From a virus (taxonomy: Duplodnaviria > Heunggongvirae > Uroviricota > Caudoviricetes): a stretch of DNA of 34,216 bases. Below, in pieces: positions 16,076 through 32,848 of this stretch. The notes beneath the pieces are model-generated. The model was given only the letters and a program-made list of their open reading frames with translations. It had not been told where the DNA came from and did no database searches. The DNA is taken from IMG/VR virus record IMGVR_UViG_3300029181_000137. One strand, given 5' to 3'. Made by a program: the position numbers and the translations under genes. How positions within the stretch are numbered: position 1 is the first letter of the stretch; each line of letters opens with the position of its first letter.

Positions 16076-16352
16076 CCGCAACAGCCCCTTTGATATCTTC
16101 CTGGGTTCTCTGTGACTCCAGTACGATCTGCTGTTTTGCATACTGGTTAGCCTCCAGAACTGTATTGACGATTTGCAGTGATTGCAGGACGTTATTGGTA
16201 ATGGCAGTTGCTGATTCAGCATTTCGTACAGCCTCATTAGCACGTTTCTTTTCGTGCTGATATTTGCTGTAGTAGTGGCTGGCAGACCAAGTGAAAGAAC
16301 CGATGACAGTCACGAAGAAAGCAGCGATAACCAGCTTATAGCTCAACTTCAT
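15960..16352 (-). CDS. Rz: i-spanin Rz
   Basis: 130-aa ORF with N-terminal TM helix (LVIAAFFVTVIGSFTW) and coiled-coil body, directly after the endolysin. Confidence 0.75.
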   Translation of the reverse strand: MKLSYKLVIAAFFVTVIGSFTWSASHYYSKYQHEKKRANEAVRNAESATAITNNVLQSLQIVNTVLEANQYAKQQIVLESQRTQEDIKGAVADDDCAVRPVPAAAADRLRKYANSLRAGSGGTAANKPDH

Positions 16353-16812
16353 TTACCACCCCGCCAGCCTCTTTAAACCGGGCAATCAGGTCACCGATTT
16401 TATGTTCATACTGACCGTAACCTGCACCGGGTAATGAAGCCCAGATATTGCTGCAACGATCGATAGCCTGACGGATATCGCCACGATCAATCATCGGTAA
16501 AGCGCCACGCTCTTTAATCTGCTGCAGTGCAACAGCGTCCTGGCTTTTCGGAGAGAAGTCTTTCAGGCCAAGCTGCTTGCGGTAGGCATCCCACCAACGG
16601 GAAAGAAGCTGGTAACGTCCGGCGGCTGTTGATTTAAGTTTCTGGTTCAGCGTGACAAGTTTGCGAGGATGATCGGAGTAATCAGTGAAGAGTTTGCCAC
16701 CAACAATAACATCATAACCGTGGTTTCGTGTTGGTTGTCGCCCGTTATCCGTTCCTTCTGACCACGCCACCATATCGAGGAAAGCTTTACGCTGAGAATT
16801 TAGTGTCTGCAT
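16336..16812 (-). CDS. R: Endolysin, lambda R-like lytic transglycosylase
   Basis: 158 aa, near-identical by memory to lambda R (NSQRKAFLDMVAWSEGTDNGRQ...HGYDVIVGG...RYQLLSRWWDAYRKQLGLKDFSP...). Confidence 0.9.
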   Translation of the reverse strand: MQTLNSQRKAFLDMVAWSEGTDNGRQPTRNHGYDVIVGGKLFTDYSDHPRKLVTLNQKLKSTAAGRYQLLSRWWDAYRKQLGLKDFSPKSQDAVALQQIKERGALPMIDRGDIRQAIDRCSNIWASLPGAGYGQYEHKIGDLIARFKEAGGVVNEVEL

Positions 16813-16815
16813 AAA

Positions 16816-17151
16816 TTACTCCTTAGAGCCACCAAACTTGTTACCGATTACTCTCATTGCAGCCCCGCGAATTGCATCGACCCCGATCAGCCCCACCCCA
16901 CCACCAATGGCAACAGAAAGCGATTTAGGCCATCCGACATACTCAAGAGCGGATGCAAAAGTCAGCGTCAGAGCGCCACAAAGCAGAATTTCGAGTGTTT
17001 TTCGTTTCCAGCCGCCACCACCACCAAAATAGGCAATACGCAAACCAGCCATAACAATCGACATAATCACTGCGCCAAGAGGCGTATCTCCACGCCACCA
17101 GCTCTGGAACAACTCCAACCAGTCCGGCCAGGTATTTGGGTTATGAGGCAT
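16816..17151 (-). CDS. S: Holin, lambda S-like (three TM segments)
   Basis: Three hydrophobic segments and GGGG turn resembling lambda S; start set at MPHNPN with GAGGTGA SD; ORF track gives an upstream start at 17223. Confidence 0.7.
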   Translation of the reverse strand: MPHNPNTWPDWLELFQSWWRGDTPLGAVIMSIVMAGLRIAYFGGGGGWKRKTLEILLCGALTLTFASALEYVGWPKSLSVAIGGGVGLIGVDAIRGAAMRVIGNKFGGSKE

Positions 17152-17228
17152 TTCGTCATCTCTCACCTCGCGATTATTTGCGGGTGCTGTGTTGGAAATA
17201 AAAAGGCCACGCAACGTGACCACCAGAA

Positions 17229-18281
17229 TTATTTCCCCACCAGTTCACTTACCTCTTTCGCCGTCTGGTTAAACCGTTCTGACTCAAGCTCAACACCTAA
17301 CGCCCGACGCCCCAGCGCCATTGCTGCTTTTATTGTGGAACCGGATCCCATAAAGAAATCAGCAACCAGATCGCCTGGCCGACTACTGGCATTGATTATT
17401 TGTCGGAGCATATCCGCTGGTTTCTCACACGGATGTTTACCCGGGTAGAACTGAACGGGGTTATGCATCCAGACATCGGTATAAGGCACGGAGACTGATA
17501 CGGAGAAATAGCGCCGGAGAGATTTAAACTCATCCAGCAATTCAGAATATTTGCGATTCAGTGAATCATAAGATGCCACCAGCTGGTGGTGTGGTTGTTC
17601 CAGTTGTTGTTTCTGAAACTTCTCTGCCGCTATACGGGAAAAAAGTGCCTGCAACTTCCGGTAGTCAGCCTCATTCGGCAACTGCCACTGACTGGCACCA
17701 AACCAGTGGGAAACCATATTTTTCTTACCTGTGGCTTCGGCAATCTGTTTTGCCGTTATACCCAGTTCGGCACGAGCATCCCTGAAATACGATATCAGCG
17801 GTGCCATTATGTGCTGTTTGAGTTCCCTTTCTTTTGCCGCATAGCCGTCACTTTTGCCGCGATATGGCCCCTGGTAATGTTCAGCAAACAGAACGCGCTC
17901 TGTGGCAGGAAAATATGCGCGCAAACTTTCTTTATTACACCCATTCCATCGTCCGGACGGCTTCGCCCAGATGATATGGTTAAGCACATTGAAACGTTCA
18001 CGCATCATGATCTCGATATCAGATGCCAGGCGATGTCCACAGAACAGGTAAAGGCTTCCGGCAGGTTTCAACACCCGCCAGAACTGGGCCAGACAGTGGT
18101 CCAGCCACTTAAGGTAATCTTCGTCCCCTTTCCACTGATTGTCCCAGCCGTTGGGCTTCACTTTGAAGTACGGTGGATCGGTAACAATCAGATCAATGGA
18201 GTCATCAGGCAGGGACTGAATAAAATGCAGGCAATCAGCGTTGATTAAATCAACACTGTTTATTTTTACAGTATTTTTCAT
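17229..18281 (-). CDS. Orphan DNA methyltransferase, beta-class (N6-adenine or N4-cytosine)
   Basis: 350-aa ORF with DPPY catalytic motif near the N-terminus (LIVTDPPYF) and AdoMet motif FxGxG near the C-terminus (DFFMGSGST); no adjacent restriction gene. Confidence 0.85.
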   Translation of the reverse strand: MKNTVKINSVDLINADCLHFIQSLPDDSIDLIVTDPPYFKVKPNGWDNQWKGDEDYLKWLDHCLAQFWRVLKPAGSLYLFCGHRLASDIEIMMRERFNVLNHIIWAKPSGRWNGCNKESLRAYFPATERVLFAEHYQGPYRGKSDGYAAKERELKQHIMAPLISYFRDARAELGITAKQIAEATGKKNMVSHWFGASQWQLPNEADYRKLQALFSRIAAEKFQKQQLEQPHHQLVASYDSLNRKYSELLDEFKSLRRYFSVSVSVPYTDVWMHNPVQFYPGKHPCEKPADMLRQIINASSRPGDLVADFFMGSGSTIKAAMALGRRALGVELESERFNQTAKEVSELVGK

Positions 18282-18416: not shown

Positions 18417-18443
18417 AAATTAAAAGCCCTTCATTGCTGAAGG
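18417..18443 (-). terminator. Intrinsic terminator-like hairpin at the end of the small ORF
   Basis: Minus strand CCTTCA-GCAA-TGAAGG followed by GCTTTTAATTT; overlaps the stop codon of ORF 18431..18649. Confidence 0.4.
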
Positions 18444-18649
18444 CGTCTGTAACAGCCGAACTGGTAATCTACCAGCCCCGCCATAACCAGCTGGGTCAGT
18501 ATTAACTGACAGCGTTCGCGTGAAAGGTATGTGTTTTGTGCAATCTCCCCGACTGTTGCCGGTTCGATGCTTAATTCATTAAAAACAACTTTTGCCGTTT
18601 CTGTCATATCTTGCTGTTTTAGCATGTCTTTTTCCCTTCTGGTTAACAT
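18431..18649 (-). CDS. Small hypothetical protein
   Basis: 72-aa ORF in late-operon orientation between the cargo cassette and the methyltransferase; no recognisable family. Confidence 0.45.
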   Translation of the reverse strand: MLTRREKDMLKQQDMTETAKVVFNELSIEPATVGEIAQNTYLSRERCQLILTQLVMAGLVDYQFGCYRRLQQ

Positions 18650-18747
18650 GACATACCAATAACTCTTGTCTAAAAAGCCAGCAAGATAAAAAGTCAGTAT
18701 TCACGACCACCAGCGTGTTTACCGTACTGCTCTTGGTTTACAGGTAC

Positions 18748-18768
18748 AAAAAAACCGCTCGACGGCGG
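18748..18768. terminator. Short GC hairpin flanked by A7/T7 runs
   Basis: AAAAAAA-CCGC-TCGACG-GCGG; reads as stem plus T7 on the minus strand; weak 4-bp stem. Confidence 0.3.
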
Positions 18769-18870
18769 GTTTAAGCTGTGTGGCGAAGTAACCACTCTTA
18801 ACAGATTATGATAGTTTTTGCGTACGCGTTAGTAATTTATTATGCTCTTTACAATTGTTAGCTTAACCGC

Positions 18871-20037
18871 ATGGAATTGACCAAAAAAATGAGCAAAGCA
18901 AGCATACGCCACGTAATCGTTCATGAGCTCTTAAAAGAATCTAATAAAGACTTCGATCACTCCAAACCATACAATCTTCGTGATACAGAACTAGATAAAA
19001 CAAATGATATAGTAAAAAAATTAGTAGACGGTGTTATTGATTTGTATGGTTCAAAAGGGAACTCAGCGCATTATGGTGTTTTTATTAAAAATAAAACAAA
19101 GCAAGGCCCTATACCAGAACTATTTCATAAATACTCTTTAGTTCAACAATCTGTTTCAAGTGATTTCATTGAATTATCGAAGGAAGTTATGAAACAAATG
19201 TATAAATCTGCTCAAGAGCAGATTTGGGCTTCTGGAGGATATGTTGTTTTTACTGATTATATTTTATCTGGTTTCCGTTATCTATTGGTTACAATGATCA
19301 AAAAAACTAATGGCGTAACTATTAGTGAAAATTTAGAGCCAGAGGAAATGATTCACTTAGAACTTGGTAATATTAACCAAGCAGCAAAAATAAATTTCAG
19401 ATATTATGAAGAATACCAAAAAGCAGATGACTTAAAAAAAACAGAGTTAAGTTATCTAAGCTTTATAAGCAAAACTACGGGACAGTCAGCGGCAGCATAT
19501 TTTATAGCAGCATTAGGATGTGACAAGGGGATTGCTTCAGCAGGTGCAACCCGTAAGTTACCAGATGAAATAAGGCGTTTCTTTAAGAAAGAACCTCTTT
19601 TAAAAAATCAAGCAGAGTCATTTAGAAATGATGTTATCAAATACTTAGAAAAGCAATTTGACAACGAGCACTCTGCAAGGCTTTCTGATATCGAATCGCT
19701 TGCTTCAGGCCATATGTCCTATTTAAAAGAGGAAGAAAAAACAGAACTTGTTGATAAATTAATGAAACACCTCAATAGTGAGGAAGTCAGAATCCCATCA
19801 GAGTTCGTAATCAATAAAAACTCCTTAGATAAAATCCGCAATGTGATATATAAAACTCCATCATTGAGCTTTCACTTCGACAAGGATTTACTCGGTGTCA
19901 CAACTGATGCTAAAATATATTATGATGACGAAAACCAAAGCCTAACATTTAATAATTTGCCTGTTGAAGCATTAACTAAGATAAGAAGAGCGTTGAAAGA
20001 AACTGATAACCCGAGTAACGAAGAAGATAAAGAATGA
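18871..20037 (+). CDS. NdpA/YejK-family (NA37) nucleoid-associated-like protein, cargo gene A
   Basis: 388-aa ORF; blocks alignable by eye to E. coli YejK (GGYVVFTDY..RYLLV...ISENLE; YLSFISKTTGQSAAAYFIAALG; FHFDKDLLG); about 30-35% GC by eye; opposite strand to phage genes. Confidence 0.8.
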   Translation: MELTKKMSKASIRHVIVHELLKESNKDFDHSKPYNLRDTELDKTNDIVKKLVDGVIDLYGSKGNSAHYGVFIKNKTKQGPIPELFHKYSLVQQSVSSDFIELSKEVMKQMYKSAQEQIWASGGYVVFTDYILSGFRYLLVTMIKKTNGVTISENLEPEEMIHLELGNINQAAKINFRYYEEYQKADDLKKTELSYLSFISKTTGQSAAAYFIAALGCDKGIASAGATRKLPDEIRRFFKKEPLLKNQAESFRNDVIKYLEKQFDNEHSARLSDIESLASGHMSYLKEEEKTELVDKLMKHLNSEEVRIPSEFVINKNSLDKIRNVIYKTPSLSFHFDKDLLGVTTDAKIYYDDENQSLTFNNLPVEALTKIRRALKETDNPSNEEDKE

Positions 20038-21260
20038 ATGATTTTAGTATAATAGTTAATCTGTATAGATTATCAAGCTATCCTCATTTTGACGGGGCTA
20101 AGTTTTCTGCGCGTATAGCTTATAATGCAGACGTAAAATCATTGTTCAAAAGAATTTTGAACCCTACTTTTCAAGCTGGTACAGCTGACGAAATAGAGGT
20201 GGATGGTCATTTAATTTATGATTATGAAGACTTTCCTGAAAAGGGAAATTTTCTTACATACTCGTTTAAAATTTCACAAGGAAGTGCGAATCGTTTTTAT
20301 AAAAATAAAAACGAGTTTGTAAAAATAAACACGCTCAAGAAAGGCATAATGCCAGAGTATTTCTATATTATAGAGGATGATTTCTATTCATTAGAAACAC
20401 CAAAACCTTCTTATATCCAAAAAATTGAGGACATTTGTGAGCTAATCAATGCTCTTTCCATGCTTGCTCATTTCCATGATATAAAAAAAGATAGCAAAGG
20501 TACATTTTATCGTTTAGTCTTTATTTTAAACTCAGAGTCTAAATCTTCTTCTGCTGTAATTGAAACAAATATTACAGAAGAAATTTTTAATGATAAAACA
20601 GTAAATACTCAGTTAGTTAAAACATTAGTAAGTAGTGAAGCTACTACTGATGCCCATCATATTGAAAAGATTAACACTTTCAGAAACACAGTTATTGAGT
20701 ATGTTAATAAAAATGGAAATTCCTTTGTCGAGTTAATTAACAAGTGGGATTTCATATGCGAACTTTATACGAACAACTTAGCTGCTTATATGTCGGCATT
20801 TTCTTTTCATAAAGCAAGGAAAGAAGTTGTTGATGCTGAACTCGATTACTCAGAAAAACTGTCAAAAATAATTTCAGAAATTTCTAACAAAGCTCTTGCC
20901 ATACCTATTTCACTAGCTGGTTCAATTGCTATTTTTAAATTAACAACAAAAGCTGATTGGATTATTGCTTTAATTGGATTGATTATCACAGCAATAATAA
21001 CATCTGCAATGATTGTGTCACAAAAAAAACAACTTGCTCGTATTTCACACTCTAAAGAAATACTTTTTGGACAATTAAGATATAGAATAAAGGATGACAC
21101 CAGCGATCTTAAAGAGAGCTTAGAAGAGGCTATTAAAAAATTAAATGACAATGAGGATTTTTGTCATAAGGTGCTTGACAGTTTATTATCACTAGCATGG
21201 ATGCCTACATTCATAGGCATCATCGGTATTTTATTTAAATTAATGCCAAATATTACTTGA
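20034..21260 (+). CDS. Membrane protein with three C-terminal TM helices, cargo gene B
   Basis: 408-aa ORF, ATGA start/stop overlap with gene A; hydrophobic segments LAIPISLAGSIAIFKL, WIIALIGLIITAIITSAMIVS, LLSLAWMPTFIGIIGILFKLM; AT-rich. Confidence 0.8.
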   Translation: MNDFSIIVNLYRLSSYPHFDGAKFSARIAYNADVKSLFKRILNPTFQAGTADEIEVDGHLIYDYEDFPEKGNFLTYSFKISQGSANRFYKNKNEFVKINTLKKGIMPEYFYIIEDDFYSLETPKPSYIQKIEDICELINALSMLAHFHDIKKDSKGTFYRLVFILNSESKSSSAVIETNITEEIFNDKTVNTQLVKTLVSSEATTDAHHIEKINTFRNTVIEYVNKNGNSFVELINKWDFICELYTNNLAAYMSAFSFHKARKEVVDAELDYSEKLSKIISEISNKALAIPISLAGSIAIFKLTTKADWIIALIGLIITAIITSAMIVSQKKQLARISHSKEILFGQLRYRIKDDTSDLKESLEEAIKKLNDNEDFCHKVLDSLLSLAWMPTFIGIIGILFKLMPNIT

Positions 21261-21612
21261 GCATGTACATAACCCCATTAATGAAACCTAACGCAGTCTG
21301 CAATTGCTTCCGGATTGTTCCATCTGAGCATCTGCGTCTCTTCGCAATAGAACGCAGTGAAATACCTATAACGAAGTGAGCAATGATCAGCTCATATTCG
21401 TCTGGTTTATACTTACACAGGCGGGCAACACAGCCGTCTATCATGATGCCTTCATCATCATCACACTGAAGGCGTATTTTTTTACCATGAGGTAAAAGCC
21501 CCTTAAAGCCTGCTGCTATCGGCTGCCAGTCCACACCACTGTTATCTGCTGCAGCCCACGCTCCCCAGCGGTCTAAAACTTCATACATATCACGCATCAA
21601 CTTTCTCCACAA
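21253..21612 (-). CDS. Q: Late antiterminator Q (QuuD / Phage_antitermQ type)
   Basis: 119 aa with LDRWGAWAA...IAAGFKGL...C..C...CSDG pattern matching my memory of DLP12 QuuD. Confidence 0.8.
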   Translation of the reverse strand: MWRKLMRDMYEVLDRWGAWAAADNSGVDWQPIAAGFKGLLPHGKKIRLQCDDDEGIMIDGCVARLCKYKPDEYELIIAHFVIGISLRSIAKRRRCSDGTIRKQLQTALGFINGVMYMLK

Positions 21613-21614
21613 AA

Positions 21615-22610
21615 TCAGGCCAGCACACCAATTGCCAGCGCGCGATCGATAAAACGAAATATCAGCTCCAGCTGGGAGCCATACTTCTCTTCAAATGCCA
21701 CGGTATCCGCGTGCAGCTCGTCGTGATGCTTTCTGCACAAAGGCAACACAAAGAGATCATGCGCTTTTGTACCCATTCCACCCTGACCGTGGCCTATCAA
21801 GTGGTGGGGATCATCAGCTGGCTTTCCACAACATGCGCACGGCTGCGTCTTAACCCAGCGCGTGTACTTTTCATTAACCCAGCGGCGACGTTTGGGGCGT
21901 AACATAAAAGACTCCGGCGACTCCGGATCCACTTTCAGCACCAGCACCTTTTTCGCTTTATCCTGGATAATGCTGGTGGCAGGAACCGAAGGCACAAGGT
22001 CACTTTCCCGGGTGACAGATGGCACAACAGGCTTCGGTAATCTCAGTGCCTTACGGGCGGCACTTTCCGGTAAGGCATCCGCCAAATCATTACGAACCAG
22101 CCACCAGCACAGTTCCGGCATTGTCACAACGTGACTGTCATCAAAACCGAGATCCAGACGCACGACAGACAACACCCAGCGGGCACAGTTATCCGTTGCC
22201 ATTGATTCCAGCCGTTCCGTGAACTGATCGCGCAGCTGGTTATCGCAGTGCCAGCACAGACGAATTGCTCCCGGAGCGTGCCGCATTGTGGTCATGTTCT
22301 CGCTGTGCCAGTCGGAATGAGGCCACTGACAGTCCTTTTCACGAAGTAACCAGCTTTCAAGACATTCCACGCCACCAGCACGACGGATCACTGCCTCATT
22401 GCGGAACACGGCCCGAACGGCAGGATCATCCGCCAGCGGTTGTGATGCCGCCGGAACGGCACCACTGGCGAAAGATGAATAACGTTCCGGCTCAGGCTCC
22501 AGCAGGACACGCCCCTGCATAAACAGGGGCATCAGCTCTGAACCTGGCCTGAACAATACGATCCCCATACGCGGGGCAATTTCAGGGGTCAGTAGTGCTC
22601 TCACGGTCAC
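21615..22610 (-). CDS. DUF968-like prophage protein with C-terminal HNH-like Cys/His motif
   Basis: 331-aa ORF; C-terminus CACCGKPADDPHHLIGHG...CRKHHDELH; nin-region position upstream of Q; family from memory. Confidence 0.55.
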   Translation of the reverse strand: MTVRALLTPEIAPRMGIVLFRPGSELMPLFMQGRVLLEPEPERYSSFASGAVPAASQPLADDPAVRAVFRNEAVIRRAGGVECLESWLLREKDCQWPHSDWHSENMTTMRHAPGAIRLCWHCDNQLRDQFTERLESMATDNCARWVLSVVRLDLGFDDSHVVTMPELCWWLVRNDLADALPESAARKALRLPKPVVPSVTRESDLVPSVPATSIIQDKAKKVLVLKVDPESPESFMLRPKRRRWVNEKYTRWVKTQPCACCGKPADDPHHLIGHGQGGMGTKAHDLFVLPLCRKHHDELHADTVAFEEKYGSQLELIFRFIDRALAIGVLA

Positions 22611-31368: not shown

Positions 31369-31718
31369 TGGAGCCATACAGCCTCACACTCGATGAGGCC
31401 TGTCATTTTCTCAAGATATCCAGACCGACTGCCATTAACTGGATACGCACAGGGCGTCTTCAGGCAACACGCAAAGATCCCACTAAGAATAAATCTCCTT
31501 ACCTCACAACACGACAAGCCTGCATTGCGGCGCTTCAGTCTCCGCTGCATACTGTCCAGGTGAGCGCGGGTGATGGCATAACAGAGGAAAGAAAATGTCA
31601 CTCTTCCGCAGAGGTGAAATATGGTACGCCAGTTTCACATTGCCGAACGGTAAAAGATTTAAACAGTCTCTTGGAACAAAGGACAAAAGGCAGGCGACAG
31701 AACTCCATGACAAGCTAA
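31368..31718 (+). CDS. xis: Excisionase (HTH_17/Xis family)
   Basis: 116-aa product from [33 protein letters not shown] with TAATG coupling and AAGAGG SD; overlaps the int start by about 120 nt. Confidence 0.65.
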
Positions 31719-32758
31719 AGGCTGAAGCATGGCGGGTCAGCAAACTTGGTGAAATACCTGATATAACGTTCGAGGAAGCGTGTGTCAGGTGGCTTGAAGA
31801 GAAAGCACATAAAAAATCACTGGACGATGACAAAAGCCGGATCGGATTCTGGCTTCAACATTTCGCAGGAATGCAACTAAGAGACATTACTGAATCAAAA
31901 ATTTATTCAGCAATGCAGAAAATGACGAACCGGCGTCATGAGGAAAACTGGAAACTCAGGGCAGAAGCATGCAGAAAAAAAGGGAAACCTGTTCCAGAAT
32001 ACACGCCAAAACCAGCGTCCGTTGCAACGAAGGCTACGCATCTTTCATTTATAAAGGCCCTACTAAGAGCCGCAGAGCGTGAATGGAAAATGCTGGATAA
32101 GGCACCAATTATTAAAGTGCCTCAACCAAAGAATAAACGGATCCGCTGGCTGGAGCCCCATGAAGCACAAAGGCTGATTGATGAATGTCCGGAGCCATTA
32201 AAGTCTGTTGTTGAATTTGCACTGGCAACAGGCTTAAGACGCTCGAACATCATCAACCTTGAATGGCAACAAATAGATATGCAGCGCCGGGTGGCATGGA
32301 TAAACCCGGAAGAGAGTAAATCAAACCGCGCAATTGGCGTTGCGCTGAATGATACTGCATGTCGCGTATTGAAAAAACAAATCGGGAATCATCACCGTTG
32401 GGTATTTGTGTACAAGGAAAGCTGTACCAAACCAGACGGAACGAAAGCGCCAACAGTAAGGAAGATGCGGTATGACGCAAACACAGCCTGGAAAGCGGCG
32501 CTGAGACGGGCTGGTATTGATGATTTCAGATTTCACGACTTGAGACACACCTGGGCAAGTTGGCTGGTTCAAGCCGGAGTCCCGTTGTCAGTTTTACAGG
32601 AAATGGGAGGCTGGGAGTCTATCGAAATGGTTCGTCGATATGCTCACCTTGCACCTAATCACCTTACCGAACACGCACGGCAAATAGACTCGATCCTGAA
32701 CCCATCGGTCCCAAATTTGTCCCAGTCAAAAAATAAGGAAGGTACTAATGATGTGTAA
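31595..32758 (+). CDS. int: Tyrosine integrase, P22-type
   Basis: 387 aa; C-terminal catalytic region with HDLRHTWAS and RRYAHLA (catalytic Tyr); ends 15 bp from the tRNA-Thr 3' end. Confidence 0.95.
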
Positions 32759-32772
32759 CTTATTGATTTTAA

Positions 32773-32848
32773 TGGTGCCGATAATAGGAGTCGAACCTAC
32801 GACCTTCGCATTACGAATGCGCTGCTCTACCAACTGAGCTATATCGGC
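32773..32848 (-). tRNA. thrW: tRNA-Thr (anticodon CGT), integration target
   Basis: Minus strand reads GCCGATATAGCTCAGTTGGTAGAGCAGCGCATTCGTAATGCGAAGGTCGTAGGTTCGACTCCTATTATCGGCACCA; anticodon loop ATTCGTAAT; encoded CCA end. Confidence 0.9.

What the first reader, a model, noticed from the sequence alone, without database searches (positions are those of the whole stretch)
18650..21260. AT-rich two-gene cassette (NdpA/YejK-like protein plus 3-TM membrane protein) in the Q-to-lysis moron slot: candidate new defence module
Two translationally coupled genes (ATGA overlap) sit on the strand opposite to every flanking phage gene, at roughly 30-35% GC against about 55% for the backbone (by-eye counts), so they are horizontally acquired cargo with their own expression. 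Gene A aligns by eye to the NA37/YejK nucleoid-associated family, a DNA-binding family known to interact with topoisomerases. Gene B has a soluble N-terminal region of about 280 aa and three C-terminal TM helices. A DNA-sensing component paired with a membrane effector is the architecture of many abortive-infection systems, and the site (immediately after Q, before the lysis genes) is where lambdoid phages carry stx, nmpC and other morons. I do not recognise this pair as a named system.
Basis: partly seen in the sequence, partly recalled or inferred. Interest (0 to 1): 0.9.

Follow-up and report, generated by a model that had tools for sequence, protein, structure and literature searches.

The report
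Divergent DS-1/PANGU-type prophage defence cassette
This AT-rich two-gene insert in an E. coli lambdoid prophage is a distant relative of DS-1 / type II PANGU, a recently published anti-phage system that pairs a YejK-like DNA-binding sensor with a membrane effector, so it is real and very probably defensive but not a new kind of system.

Summary
Two overlapping genes (A 18871/18889..20037, B 20034..21260, ATGA overlap) lie on the + strand at 28-36% GC inside a 47-59% GC, minus-strand lambdoid prophage. Gene A is a clear NA37/YejK protein. Gene B has a soluble, mildly acidic N-terminal region and 2-3 C-terminal TM helices.

The pair is not unnamed. Both proteins are distant homologues (23-24% identity; hhalign 96.5%) of DS-1A/DS-1B, validated as anti-phage in DefensePredictor (Science 2026). 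The architecture also matches type II PANGU (bioRxiv, April 2026), where the nucleoid protein leaves the nucleoid on T4 infection (attributed to genome degradation) and binds the effector's soluble domain.

DefensePredictor scored alleles of both genes as novel defence genes but did not test them.

My additions:
- The A-B pairing is kept in 20/20 species-level loci.
- Gene B's family has about 1,000 cluster representatives and no Pfam model.
- DS-1 occupies exactly the same slot, between Q and the late-promoter region, in sister prophages with 85-98% identical flanks.
- The slot appears to supply a backbone -35 to a cargo -10.
- Gene B and Q converge with overlapping stop codons.

Verdict: new, untested member of a known kind; moderate interest.

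The parts
18754..18766 (-). tR'-like intrinsic terminator hairpin of the phage late leader. It is backbone, not cargo, and marks the late-promoter region that borders the slot.
   Evidence: The terminator scan finds GCCGTCGAGCGGT followed by a T-run. The homologous position is annotated 'terminator' in SfV and in phage Ayreon. It is conserved in the DS-1 and mEp460_4F5 loci.
18816..18831 (+). Invariant backbone 16-mer TTTTGCGTACGCGTTA (palindromic core GCGTACGC) bordering the cargo slot. It may be part of the late-promoter/Q-loading region and the source of the cargo promoter's -35.
   Evidence: It occurs exactly once in every Q-adjacent cassette locus L001-L020 and L033, in mEp460_4F5 (L034) upstream of a different cargo, and in 33 of the 36 DS-1 loci. 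The three DS-1 loci without it are truncated on the upstream side. Chance expectation in the window is 0.04.
18818..18846 (+). Putative hybrid sigma70 promoter for the cassette: -35 TTGCGT (18818-18823, backbone), a 17-nt spacer, and -10 TATGCT (18841-18846, cargo side). The left cargo boundary lies at about 18833-18836, inside the spacer.
   Evidence: A TAnnCT/TAnnnT hexamer sits exactly 17 nt after TTGCGT in 9/11 orthologous loci. The same is true for three different cargos: TATGCT here, TAGAAT for DS-1 and TAAACT for mEp460_4F5. The generic scan did not call it. This part is an inference.
18889..20037 (+). Gene A: a YejK/NA37-family nucleoid-associated protein and the putative sensor (DS-1A/Pag2A-like). 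The alternative upstream start at 18871 gives 388 aa.
   Evidence: PF04245 172 bits, E 2e-50. NCBIfam YejK 133 bits and DS1_1_antiphage 97.8 bits, both below cutoff. phrog_3767. PDB 9be2 YejK at E 6e-15. 23% identical to DS-1A, E 1e-10. Annotated as WP_120130707.1, which has DefensePredictor log-odds 10.3.
20034..20888 (+). Gene B, soluble N-terminal region (residues 1-285): an alpha/beta domain (about 1-200) plus helices, mildly acidic. It is the putative docking ('DMK-like') domain for gene A's protein.
   Evidence: AlphaFold2 model with mean pLDDT 87. Net charge -8 and pI 5.46 here; family mean -12.7 and pI 5.04. Conserved motifs AHFHDxK, RLVFVxxSESKS, H..EKxxTFRNTxxE and NNLxxYMSAFSFHKARKE. 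Homologous to DS-1B over residues 88-318.
20892..21026 (+). Gene B, first hydrophobic region (residues 287-331): one weak and one strong TM helix.
   Evidence: Kyte-Doolittle 19-residue windows of 1.6 to 2.76. The model has helices 289-302 and 306-352.
21174..21248 (+). Gene B, C-terminal TM helix (residues 381-405).
   Evidence: Kyte-Doolittle peak of 1.94. Helix 390-403 in the model, with conserved W389 and P391.
21253..21612 (-). Phage antiterminator Q (backbone), convergent with gene B. The two stop codons overlap by 8 bp (21253-21260).
   Evidence: PF06530 at E 5e-44. The sequence shows the overlap. The stops overlap or abut in 9/11 orthologous loci. No + strand terminator-like site between 21260 and 21700.

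Best explanation
The cassette is a prophage-borne, two-gene anti-phage (abortive-infection-type) system of the DS-1 / type II PANGU kind.

Proposed mechanism:
1. Gene A encodes a YejK-like nucleoid-associated protein that normally sits on the host chromosome.
2. Gene B encodes an inner-membrane protein whose soluble, acidic N-terminal region is the docking site for A.
3. When an infecting phage degrades or otherwise disrupts the host nucleoid, A is released and binds B's N-terminal region.
4. That binding switches on B's helical/TM part, which damages membrane function. The infected cell stops supporting phage growth.

The cassette is expressed in the lysogen from a promoter at the edge of the cargo slot (backbone -35, cargo -10), divergent from the phage late promoter.

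Shown here: the family assignments, homology of both genes to DS-1, strict A-B co-occurrence, the TM architecture, the shared genomic slot with DS-1, and the boundaries.

Taken from the literature for relatives: anti-phage activity (DS-1, PANGU-Ecu), the requirement for both genes, the lack of toxicity of either gene alone, NAP relocalisation on T4 infection, and nanomolar NAP-effector binding.

Inferred for this allele: that it defends, what triggers it, and that B acts on the membrane.

My estimates: defence function about 0.85; this specific trigger and effector mechanism about 0.6.
For: Homology and family:
- Gene A is NA37/YejK.
- Gene A hits NCBIfam DS1_1_antiphage at E 6e-28 and gene B hits DS1_2_antiphage at E 1.7e-28.
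- BLASTP to the published DS-1A and DS-1B gives E 1e-10 and 2e-10. hhalign of the gene B family against DS-1B gives 96.5% probability over 219 columns.

What is known for relatives:
- The PANGU paper names T1 and T5 as phages that degrade host DNA. The same is established for T7/T3 (my knowledge).
- In type II PANGU (NAP plus an effector with an N-terminal acidic domain and a C-terminal TM domain), both genes are needed, neither is toxic alone, Pag2A binds the effector domain with KD 19 nM, and Pag2A-GFP leaves the nucleoid on T4 infection.

Prediction for these genes:
- DefensePredictor gives log-odds 10.3 for WP_120130707.1, a gene A allele 99.5% identical to the window's. It gives 13.05 for WP_016159279.1, the gene B allele in a genome whose cassette DNA is 99.6% identical to the window.

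Context:
- A homologue lies directly upstream of the B homologue in 20/20 species-level loci, from Shigella to Pseudomonas and Vibrio.
- The Vibrio copy neighbours a DEAD/ResIII helicase and a T5orf172 protein.
- The gene B family's N-terminal region is acidic throughout and its TM part is basic.
- DS-1 occupies the identical slot in sister prophages whose flanks are 85-98% identical.
Against: - This allele has never been tested. Only 45% of DefensePredictor picks validated overall.
- Both proteins score far below the NCBIfam equivalog cutoffs (97.8 against 330, and 99.8 against 315). They are only 23-24% identical to DS-1.
- Gene A lacks DS-1A's N-terminal zinc ribbon.
- PADLOC v2 finds nothing.
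- The window's gene B N-terminal region is only mildly acidic (net -8).
- No fold search gave a specific match that would confirm a pore or channel.
- The PANGU authors state that how Pag2A activates Pag2B is undetermined.
- The promoter is inferred from conservation alone, and the generic scan did not call it.
Confidence: 0.6

Rival explanations
1. The cassette is an anti-phage system of the same family, but the trigger is not release of the nucleoid protein by genome degradation. Gene A could instead sense incoming phage DNA, a phage DNA-protein complex, a phage-encoded nucleoid or topoisomerase modifier, or a change in supercoiling, and then activate gene B.
For: EndoII escape mutants were shown for type I PANGU only. 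T1 and T5 degrade host DNA yet escape the two PANGU systems studied. DS-1 restricts T1-like and T5-like phages. So the spectrum is not explained by genome degradation alone. Gene A is only 23% identical to DS-1A and lacks its zinc ribbon, which leaves room for a different specificity.
Against: Pag2A-GFP relocalises from the nucleoid on T4 infection in a type II system. The phages restricted by DS-1 are all host-DNA degraders. No extra sensor domain is detectable in gene A or B.
Confidence: 0.22
2. The cassette is a regulatory or maintenance module of the prophage rather than a defence against other phages. It would act through convergent transcription into Q and back-to-back placement with the late promoter, damping Q and late expression and so stabilising lysogeny, or it would act as an addiction module.
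For: The gene B and Q stop codons overlap or abut in 9/11 loci, with no terminator between them. The cassette lies immediately beside the conserved late-promoter region. The A-B-Q arrangement is conserved across the Enterobacterales loci.
Against: The same pair occurs without any Q or phage genes in Pseudomonas and Vibrio. DS-1 protects when cloned alone in a non-lysogen. Unrelated cargo genes, or nothing at all, occupy the same slot in sister phages, so the slot does not need this pair. PANGU genes are not toxic individually.
Confidence: 0.06
3. The cassette is a non-defence lysogenic-conversion moron. A YejK-like protein would remodel host nucleoid or gene expression, and the membrane protein would serve some host-fitness role unrelated to phage.
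For: Chromosomal YejK is a genuine nucleoid protein of unclear physiology. Gene A scores higher on the YejK model than on the DS-1A model. Gene B has no recognisable catalytic or toxin fold.
Against: Both partners are homologous to a validated defence pair. Both have high DefensePredictor scores. The pairing is strict. At one hotspot there is a series of deeply divergent alleles inside near-identical flanks, which is typical of defence cargo.
Confidence: 0.07

Closest known systems
DS-1 (DefensePredictor system D390: DS-1A WP_000355468.1 + DS-1B WP_000150292.1; NCBIfam NF053868/NF053869)
   Same: Same gene order and similar sizes: an NA37 protein followed by a protein of about 400 aa with a hydrophobic C-terminus. 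Both proteins are homologous. Both cassettes are AT-rich. DS-1 sits in the identical slot between Q and the late-promoter region of the same prophage lineage, with the same backbone 16-mer upstream and Q convergent downstream.
   Different: Only 23-24% identity, and scores far below the equivalog cutoffs. Gene A lacks the N-terminal CxxC...CxxC zinc ribbon of DS-1A. Gene B has more strongly hydrophobic helices than DS-1B. It is rarer in complete E. coli genomes: 30 against 106 of 5426. It has been predicted but not tested.
Type II PANGU (Pag2A + Pag2B; bioRxiv 10.64898/2026.04.06.716658)
   Same: A bicistronic operon of a YejK-like NAP plus an effector with a soluble acidic N-terminal domain and a C-terminal TM domain, found in E. 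coli. The proposed mechanism (NAP release leading to effector activation and abortive infection) is the best available model for this cassette.
   Different: Sequence identity to Pag2A/Pag2B is unknown because no sequences or accessions were accessible. The cassette could even be PANGU-Ecu itself. The paper links PANGU loci to defence islands and does not mention prophages. The acidity of the window's gene B N-terminal region is modest.
Type I PANGU (Pag1A + GRel toxSAS Pag1B)
   Same: It uses the same class of YejK-like sensor, with a DNA-mimicking docking domain on the effector.
   Different: The effector is a soluble alarmone synthetase, not a membrane protein. Gene B has no toxSYNTH domain.
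Chromosomal YejK/NdpA (PF04245; PDB 9be2)
   Same: Gene A shares the full-length NA37 domain.
   Different: It scores 133 bits against the YejK equivalog cutoff of 341. It is AT-rich mobile cargo coupled to a membrane partner, not the standalone housekeeping gene.
Lambda RexA/RexB (from general knowledge, not tested here)
   Same: It works in a similar way: a prophage-encoded, lysogen-expressed, two-gene exclusion system with a cytoplasmic sensor linked to DNA events and a multi-pass inner-membrane effector that collapses membrane potential.
   Different: There is no sequence or fold relationship, and it sits at a different locus (the immunity region).

Membership tests
NA37 / YejK nucleoid-associated protein family (PF04245) | Full-length match to the Pfam NA37 model above the gathering score | tested here: met
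   172.3 bits against a cutoff of 24.6, residues 16-364 on model positions 1-321 of 325. PDB YejK 9be2 at E 6e-15.
NA37 / YejK nucleoid-associated protein family (PF04245) | Equivalog of chromosomal YejK (NCBIfam NF001557 cutoff) | tested here: not met
   133 bits against a cutoff of 341. It is a family member, not the housekeeping orthologue.
DS-1 (DefensePredictor; NCBIfam DS1_1/DS1_2 equivalogs) | Gene A reaches the NF053868 cutoff | tested here: not met
   97.8 bits against 330, E 6e-28. 23% identity to DS-1A.
DS-1 (DefensePredictor; NCBIfam DS1_1/DS1_2 equivalogs) | Gene B reaches the NF053869 cutoff | tested here: not met
   99.8 bits against 315, E 1.7e-28, covering model positions 31-336 of 337. 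24% identity.
DS-1 (DefensePredictor; NCBIfam DS1_1/DS1_2 equivalogs) | Both partners homologous to DS-1A/B, in the same order and operon | tested here: met
   BLASTP E 1e-10 and 2e-10. hhalign 96.5%. ATGA overlap. Same genomic slot.
DS-1 (DefensePredictor; NCBIfam DS1_1/DS1_2 equivalogs) | N-terminal zinc ribbon on the NA37 protein | tested here: not met
   In DS-1A the NA37 domain spans residues 42-382, after a CxxC...CxxC segment. In gene A the NA37 domain starts at residue 16 of the 388-aa ORF and there are no Cys pairs.
DS-1 (DefensePredictor; NCBIfam DS1_1/DS1_2 equivalogs) | Reduces plating of phages when cloned | not testable with these tools
   Shown only for DS-1 itself. Alleles of the window genes are only predicted.
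Type II PANGU (Pag2A/Pag2B) | YejK-like NAP in a two-gene operon (gap under 40 bp) | tested here: met
   NA37 domain. 4-bp overlap with gene B. The pairing is conserved in 20/20 loci.
Type II PANGU (Pag2A/Pag2B) | Effector with a C-terminal transmembrane domain | tested here: met
   Hydropathy segments 287-331 and 381-405, modelled as long helices at pLDDT 87.
Type II PANGU (Pag2A/Pag2B) | N-terminal acidic DNA-mimicking (DMK) domain on the effector | tested here: inconclusive
   The N-terminal region has net charge -8 and pI 5.46 here. The family mean is -12.7, range -20 to -4. Surface electrostatics and DNA mimicry could not be computed.
Type II PANGU (Pag2A/Pag2B) | Sequence match to the authors' Pag2A/Pag2B HMMs (their Cluster 2) | not testable with these tools
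   No sequences, accessions or supplements are held for the preprint.
Type II PANGU (Pag2A/Pag2B) | NAP binds the effector domain and relocalises from the nucleoid on infection | not testable with these tools
   These are experimental properties, reported for PANGU-Ecu only.

The most novel reading that the evidence does not exclude
The junction between Q and the late promoter in this lambdoid lineage may be a dedicated, promoter-equipped cargo slot. The backbone would supply an invariant -35 inside a palindromic 16-mer next to the late promoter, and each cargo would bring its own -10. The slot exchanges deeply divergent NAP-membrane defence alleles (this cassette, DS-1, at least one further Shigella variant) and unrelated unknown genes.

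Because the cargo is back-to-back with the late promoter and converges on Q with overlapping stop codons, it would be on in the lysogen. On induction, antisense read-through from the early operon, or Q/RNA polymerase loading at the late promoter, would silence it. That would stop a sensor of nucleoid damage from firing against its own phage.
Probability: 0.3. Interest if true: 0.55.

Novelty: new member of a known kind. Interest (0 to 1): 0.35.

Why it matters
The cassette adds a second, very divergent E. coli lineage (about 23% identity) to the newly described family of NAP-plus-membrane-effector defences. Comparing it with DS-1 should show which residues matter: the conserved AHFHDxK, SESKS, TFRNT and YMSAFSFHK motifs of the effector are obvious targets. 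The effector's mode of action is still undetermined in the literature.

The analysis also shows that these systems are prophage cargo at a specific, exchangeable slot beside the Q antiterminator. Neither source paper mentions this. It bears on how lysogens acquire and swap immunity, and on how a sensor of genome damage coexists with its own phage's lytic cycle.

On the practical side, current annotation pipelines leave both this cassette and DS-1 itself named 'nucleoid-associated protein' plus 'hypothetical protein' in RefSeq genomes.

Tried and rejected
- PADLOC-DB v2 (2023): no real hit. The DrmC match at E 0.031 was rejected as noise.
- Weak Pfam and NCBIfam hits for gene B (DUF4456 at E 0.03, AcrID1 at E 0.07) were rejected because they are below cutoff and short.
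- Fold searches with a confident gene B model:
  - Foldseek against PDB gave 0 hits at E<=1e-3. The weak CorA and ClyA resemblances (TM-scores 0.15-0.27) are not evidence.
  - BFVD gave nothing.
  - The AFDB50 library was unavailable.
- I tried to establish whether the cassette is PANGU-Ecu itself. The preprint text holds no accessions and no supplements, so this is unresolved.
- The generic sigma70 scan found no promoter between 18650 and 18870, and overall counts were no higher than in shuffled sequence. The promoter proposal rests on comparative conservation instead.
- The alternative cargos in the same slot (mEp460_4F5, 308 aa; PhiR40_1, 148 aa) have no Pfam, NCBIfam or PADLOC hits.
- A literature search for a described lambdoid Q-adjacent defence hotspot found nothing relevant.
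- I considered and rejected the idea that the cassette occupies the stx slot. In phage 1720a-02, stx lies beyond the methyltransferase, downstream of the late leader, whereas the empty site for this cassette is at the Q stop codon.
Full report
**1. What is in the sequence**

The window is a lambdoid prophage. Its replication, Q, lysis and morphogenesis genes are on the minus strand, and an integrase (31595..32758) sits beside tRNA-Thr(CGT) at 32773..32848.

Two plus-strand ORFs lie inside it. Gene A is 18871..20037 (388 aa) and gene B is 20034..21260 (408 aa), overlapping in ATGA. GC is 0.28-0.36 across 18800-21200 and 0.47-0.59 on either side.

The neighbours, all on the minus strand, are:
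- Q antiterminator 21253..21612 (PF06530) and a DUF968/HNH protein 21615..22610
- a 72-aa winged-helix-like ORF 18431..18649
- an N6/N4 DNA methyltransferase 17229..18281
- holin 16816..17223 and a probable lysozyme 16336..16812 (no Pfam hit; 91-98% identical homologues sit beside the holin in related loci)

Gene A probably starts at Met7 (18889, 382 aa). That ATG aligns with the starts of the orthologues, and it is the start PGAP uses in four of the five cassette-bearing E. coli genomes examined; the fifth is annotated from 18871.

**2. What the two proteins are**

Gene A is a full-length NA37/YejK protein. It scores 172 bits on PF04245 and matches YejK structure 9be2 at E 6e-15.

Gene B has no Pfam family. 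It matches phrog_5023, of unknown function. An AlphaFold2 model built on 55 homologues is confident (mean pLDDT 87, pTM 0.65). It shows an alpha/beta domain at about residues 1-200 followed by very long helices. Hydropathy gives a weak segment at 287-305 and strong segments at 303-331 and 381-405.

The soluble region (1-285) has net charge -8 and pI 5.5. Across the family it averages -12.7 and pI 5.0, while the TM part is basic.

**3. It is a relative of a published system**

PADLOC v2 (2023) is silent. NCBIfam release 20 matches gene A to 'DS1_1_antiphage' (E 6e-28) and gene B to 'DS1_2_antiphage' (E 1.7e-28), both far below the equivalog cutoffs.

DS-1 is system D390 of the DefensePredictor study (PMC13092281). 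It consists of WP_000355468.1 (zinc ribbon plus NA37, 391 aa) followed by WP_000150292.1 (404 aa). [quoted passage not shown]
- Bas1 by 7.6 logs
- Bas26 by 2.7 logs
- Bas3 and T3 by 1.7 logs each
- T5 and T7 by about 1 log each

The paper gives no mechanism for DS-1.

Using the published sequences, gene A is 23% identical to DS-1A (E 1e-10). Gene B is 24% identical to DS-1B (E 2e-10). A profile of the gene B family aligns to DS-1B with 96.5% probability over 219 columns. Gene A lacks DS-1A's zinc ribbon.

A second paper (bioRxiv 10.64898/2026.04.06.716658) defines PANGU systems as operons of a YejK-like NAP plus an effector. Type II has a NAP (Pag2A) and a protein with an N-terminal acidic 'DNA-mimicking' domain and a C-terminal TM domain (Pag2B). 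For an E. coli type II system the authors report the following:
- Both genes are required.
- Neither gene is toxic alone.
- Protection has abortive-infection features.
- Pag2A binds the Pag2B soluble domain with KD 19 nM.
- Pag2A-GFP leaves the nucleoid on T4 infection.

How the effector is activated is stated to be unknown. No sequences are accessible, so I cannot say whether this cassette is that system, a close relative or a distinct lineage.

**4. Alleles of these genes were predicted but not tested**

In strains K71-77 and 1EC187, gene A is annotated WP_120130707.1; that allele is 99.5% identical to the window's gene A. In strain 1008S13, whose cassette DNA is 99.6% identical to the window, gene B is WP_016159279.1.

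Both accessions appear in DefensePredictor Table S10 as 'Predicted novel defense gene', with log-odds 10.3 and 13.05. For comparison, DS-1B has 12.7-12.9.

Table S6, which lists the tested units, contains only one nucleoid-associated unit, and that is DS-1.

**5.

- Gene A scores as NA37: yes.
- The genes co-occur: yes. In 20 of 20 species-representative genome loci (Shigella, Ewingella, Pantoea, Xenorhabdus, Pectobacterium, Providencia, Proteus, Pseudomonas, Vibrio), a gene A homologue (35-72% identity) lies on the same strand directly upstream of the gene B homologue (27-53% identity). Three of these copies look degraded.
- The pair matches a characterised system: yes, so the novelty claim fails.

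An exhaustive profile search finds 1,009 representatives of 50%-identity clusters at E<=1e-3, and 196 at E<=1e-30. The top 150 listed are mostly about 400-430 aa and align full length.

The cassette is present at 99% identity or more in 30 of 5,426 complete E. coli genomes. DS-1 is present in 106.

**6. Where exactly it sits, and what I add**

A synthetic 'cassette-deleted' query finds empty sites in phages 1720a-02 and PPyecE_EH1910, where the Q stop codon is followed directly by the region that here lies at 18650-18835. That region carries a terminator hairpin on the phage strand (18766..18754). The hairpin is annotated as a terminator in SfV and Ayreon. I take it to be the late-promoter/leader region.

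So the cassette lies between Q and the late promoter, not downstream of it where stx lies.

In all ten Enterobacterales loci and in Klebsiella phage P7641, the pair sits in the same place, convergent with a Q homologue. The gene B and Q stop codons overlap or abut in 9 of 11 cases, and no terminator-like site follows gene B.

DS-1 occupies the same slot in 36 IMG/VR prophage contigs. In most of them the flanking genes are nearly identical to the window's: Q mostly 84-88%, DUF968 mostly 97-100%, and KilA and RusA up to 98-99%. So the two cassettes are positional alternatives inside a shared backbone.

Other phages carry unrelated opposite-strand genes of unknown function in the same slot: 308 aa in mEp460_4F5 and 148 aa in PhiR40_1.

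An invariant 16-mer, TTTTGCGTACGCGTTA (18816-18831), borders the slot in every Q-adjacent cassette locus (L001-L020, L033), in mEp460_4F5, and in 33 of the 36 DS-1 loci; the three without it are truncated on the upstream side. The three kinds of cargo diverge just after it. Each has a TAnnnT hexamer exactly 17 nt after the backbone TTGCGT: TATGCT here, TAGAAT for DS-1 and TAAACT for mEp460_4F5. The same spacing holds in 9 of 11 orthologous loci.

I infer a hybrid promoter with the -35 from the backbone and the -10 from the cargo, back-to-back with the late promoter. This is comparative inference, not a measured start site.

**7. Most likely mechanism**

By homology to DS-1 and by architecture shared with type II PANGU, the cassette is most likely expressed in the lysogen. 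Protein A would coat the nucleoid. Destruction or disruption of the nucleoid by an infecting phage would free A to bind B's acidic soluble region. B would then compromise the membrane and abort the infection.

The phages restricted by DS-1 fit this. They are T1-like, T5-like and T7-like; the BASEL phage classification is from memory. The PANGU paper names T1 and T5 as host-DNA degraders, and the same is established for T7/T3 (my knowledge).

The weak points are:
- This allele has not been tested.
- Identity to DS-1 is low.
- The acidity of this copy's N-terminal region is modest.
- No fold evidence shows what B does to the membrane.

In Vibrio the pair lies beside a DEAD/ResIII helicase and a T5orf172 protein rather than in a prophage. 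The module therefore works independently of Q, which argues against a purely prophage-regulatory role.

**8. Verdict**

It is a new, untested and highly divergent member of the DS-1 / type II PANGU kind.

The points of residual interest are the allelic series at a conserved slot between Q and the late promoter, the apparent shared promoter, the convergent overlap with Q, and the conserved effector motifs that could guide work on the still-unknown effector mechanism.

Noticed in passing
window 18816-18831 (+); also L001-L020, L033, L034 and 33 of the 36 DS-1 loci (L036-L068): An invariant 16-mer TTTTGCGTACGCGTTA (palindromic core GCGTACGC) borders the cargo slot in every Q-adjacent cassette-bearing locus. 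It also precedes a different cargo in mEp460_4F5. It may belong to the late-promoter/Q-loading region and may supply the -35 of the cargo promoter.
   Followed up: partly
L034:1648-2574 (-) in phage mEp460_4F5; L035:1407-1853 (+) in phage PhiR40_1: Unrelated opposite-strand genes of unknown function (308 aa and 148 aa) occupy the same slot between Q and the late promoter in sister phages. They have no Pfam, NCBIfam or PADLOC hits. They are candidates for further uncharacterised cargo, possibly defence genes.
   Followed up: partly
window 21253-21260; L011, L012, L015, L017-L020, L033: The stop codons of gene B and the convergent Q gene overlap or abut in 9 of 11 loci (often a shared TTAA), with no terminator between them. 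Cassette transcripts must therefore run antisense into Q, and early read-through must run antisense into the cassette.
   Followed up: partly
L011 and L014 (Shigella flexneri CP182557.1); L027; L030: One Shigella genome holds two further variants of the pair in Q slots: B at 53% identity, and a second copy at 44% with a truncated gene A. L027 (Pseudomonas) and L030 (Pantoea symbiont) also look degraded. So the family shows allelic diversity and decay.
   Followed up: no
E. coli 268.2, NZ_CP059947.1 1161599-1164986 (hit H21): In one genome the cassette match is split into two pieces spanning 3,388 bp instead of 2,611, with an annotated IS1 transposase inside. The cassette is interrupted by IS1 there.
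   Followed up: no
window 18431-18649 (-): A 72-aa ORF with weak winged-helix hits (TrmB, DprA_WH, MarR_2; E about 1e-3) is the first gene after the late leader/terminator. Its counterpart in phiP27 is annotated as a TrmB-family regulator. Its role in the late operon is unknown.
   Followed up: no
window 17229-18281 (-): An N6/N4 DNA methyltransferase (PF01555) lies between the late leader and the holin, conserved in SfV, 1720a-02 and mEp460. In the empty-site phage 1720a-02, the stx2 genes lie beyond it. It may be a phage anti-restriction methylase.
   Followed up: no
L029 475-3768 (Vibrio sp. LaRot3): The Vibrio copy of the pair is preceded on the same strand by a DEAD/ResIII helicase (676 aa) and a T5orf172/MUG113 protein (419 aa). 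The context looks like a defence island, and this could be a larger multi-gene arrangement.
   Followed up: no
RefSeq E. coli genomes, e.g. NZ_CP009050.1 2344251-2346643 (hit H57): DS-1 itself (100% identical) is still annotated as 'nucleoid-associated protein' plus 'hypothetical protein' in the five complete genomes listed, out of 106 that carry it, although NCBIfam now has DS1_1/DS1_2 models.
   Followed up: no
window 31595-32848: The prophage integrase (31595..32758, +) abuts tRNA-Thr(CGT) (32773..32848, -), which is the likely attachment site.
   Followed up: no
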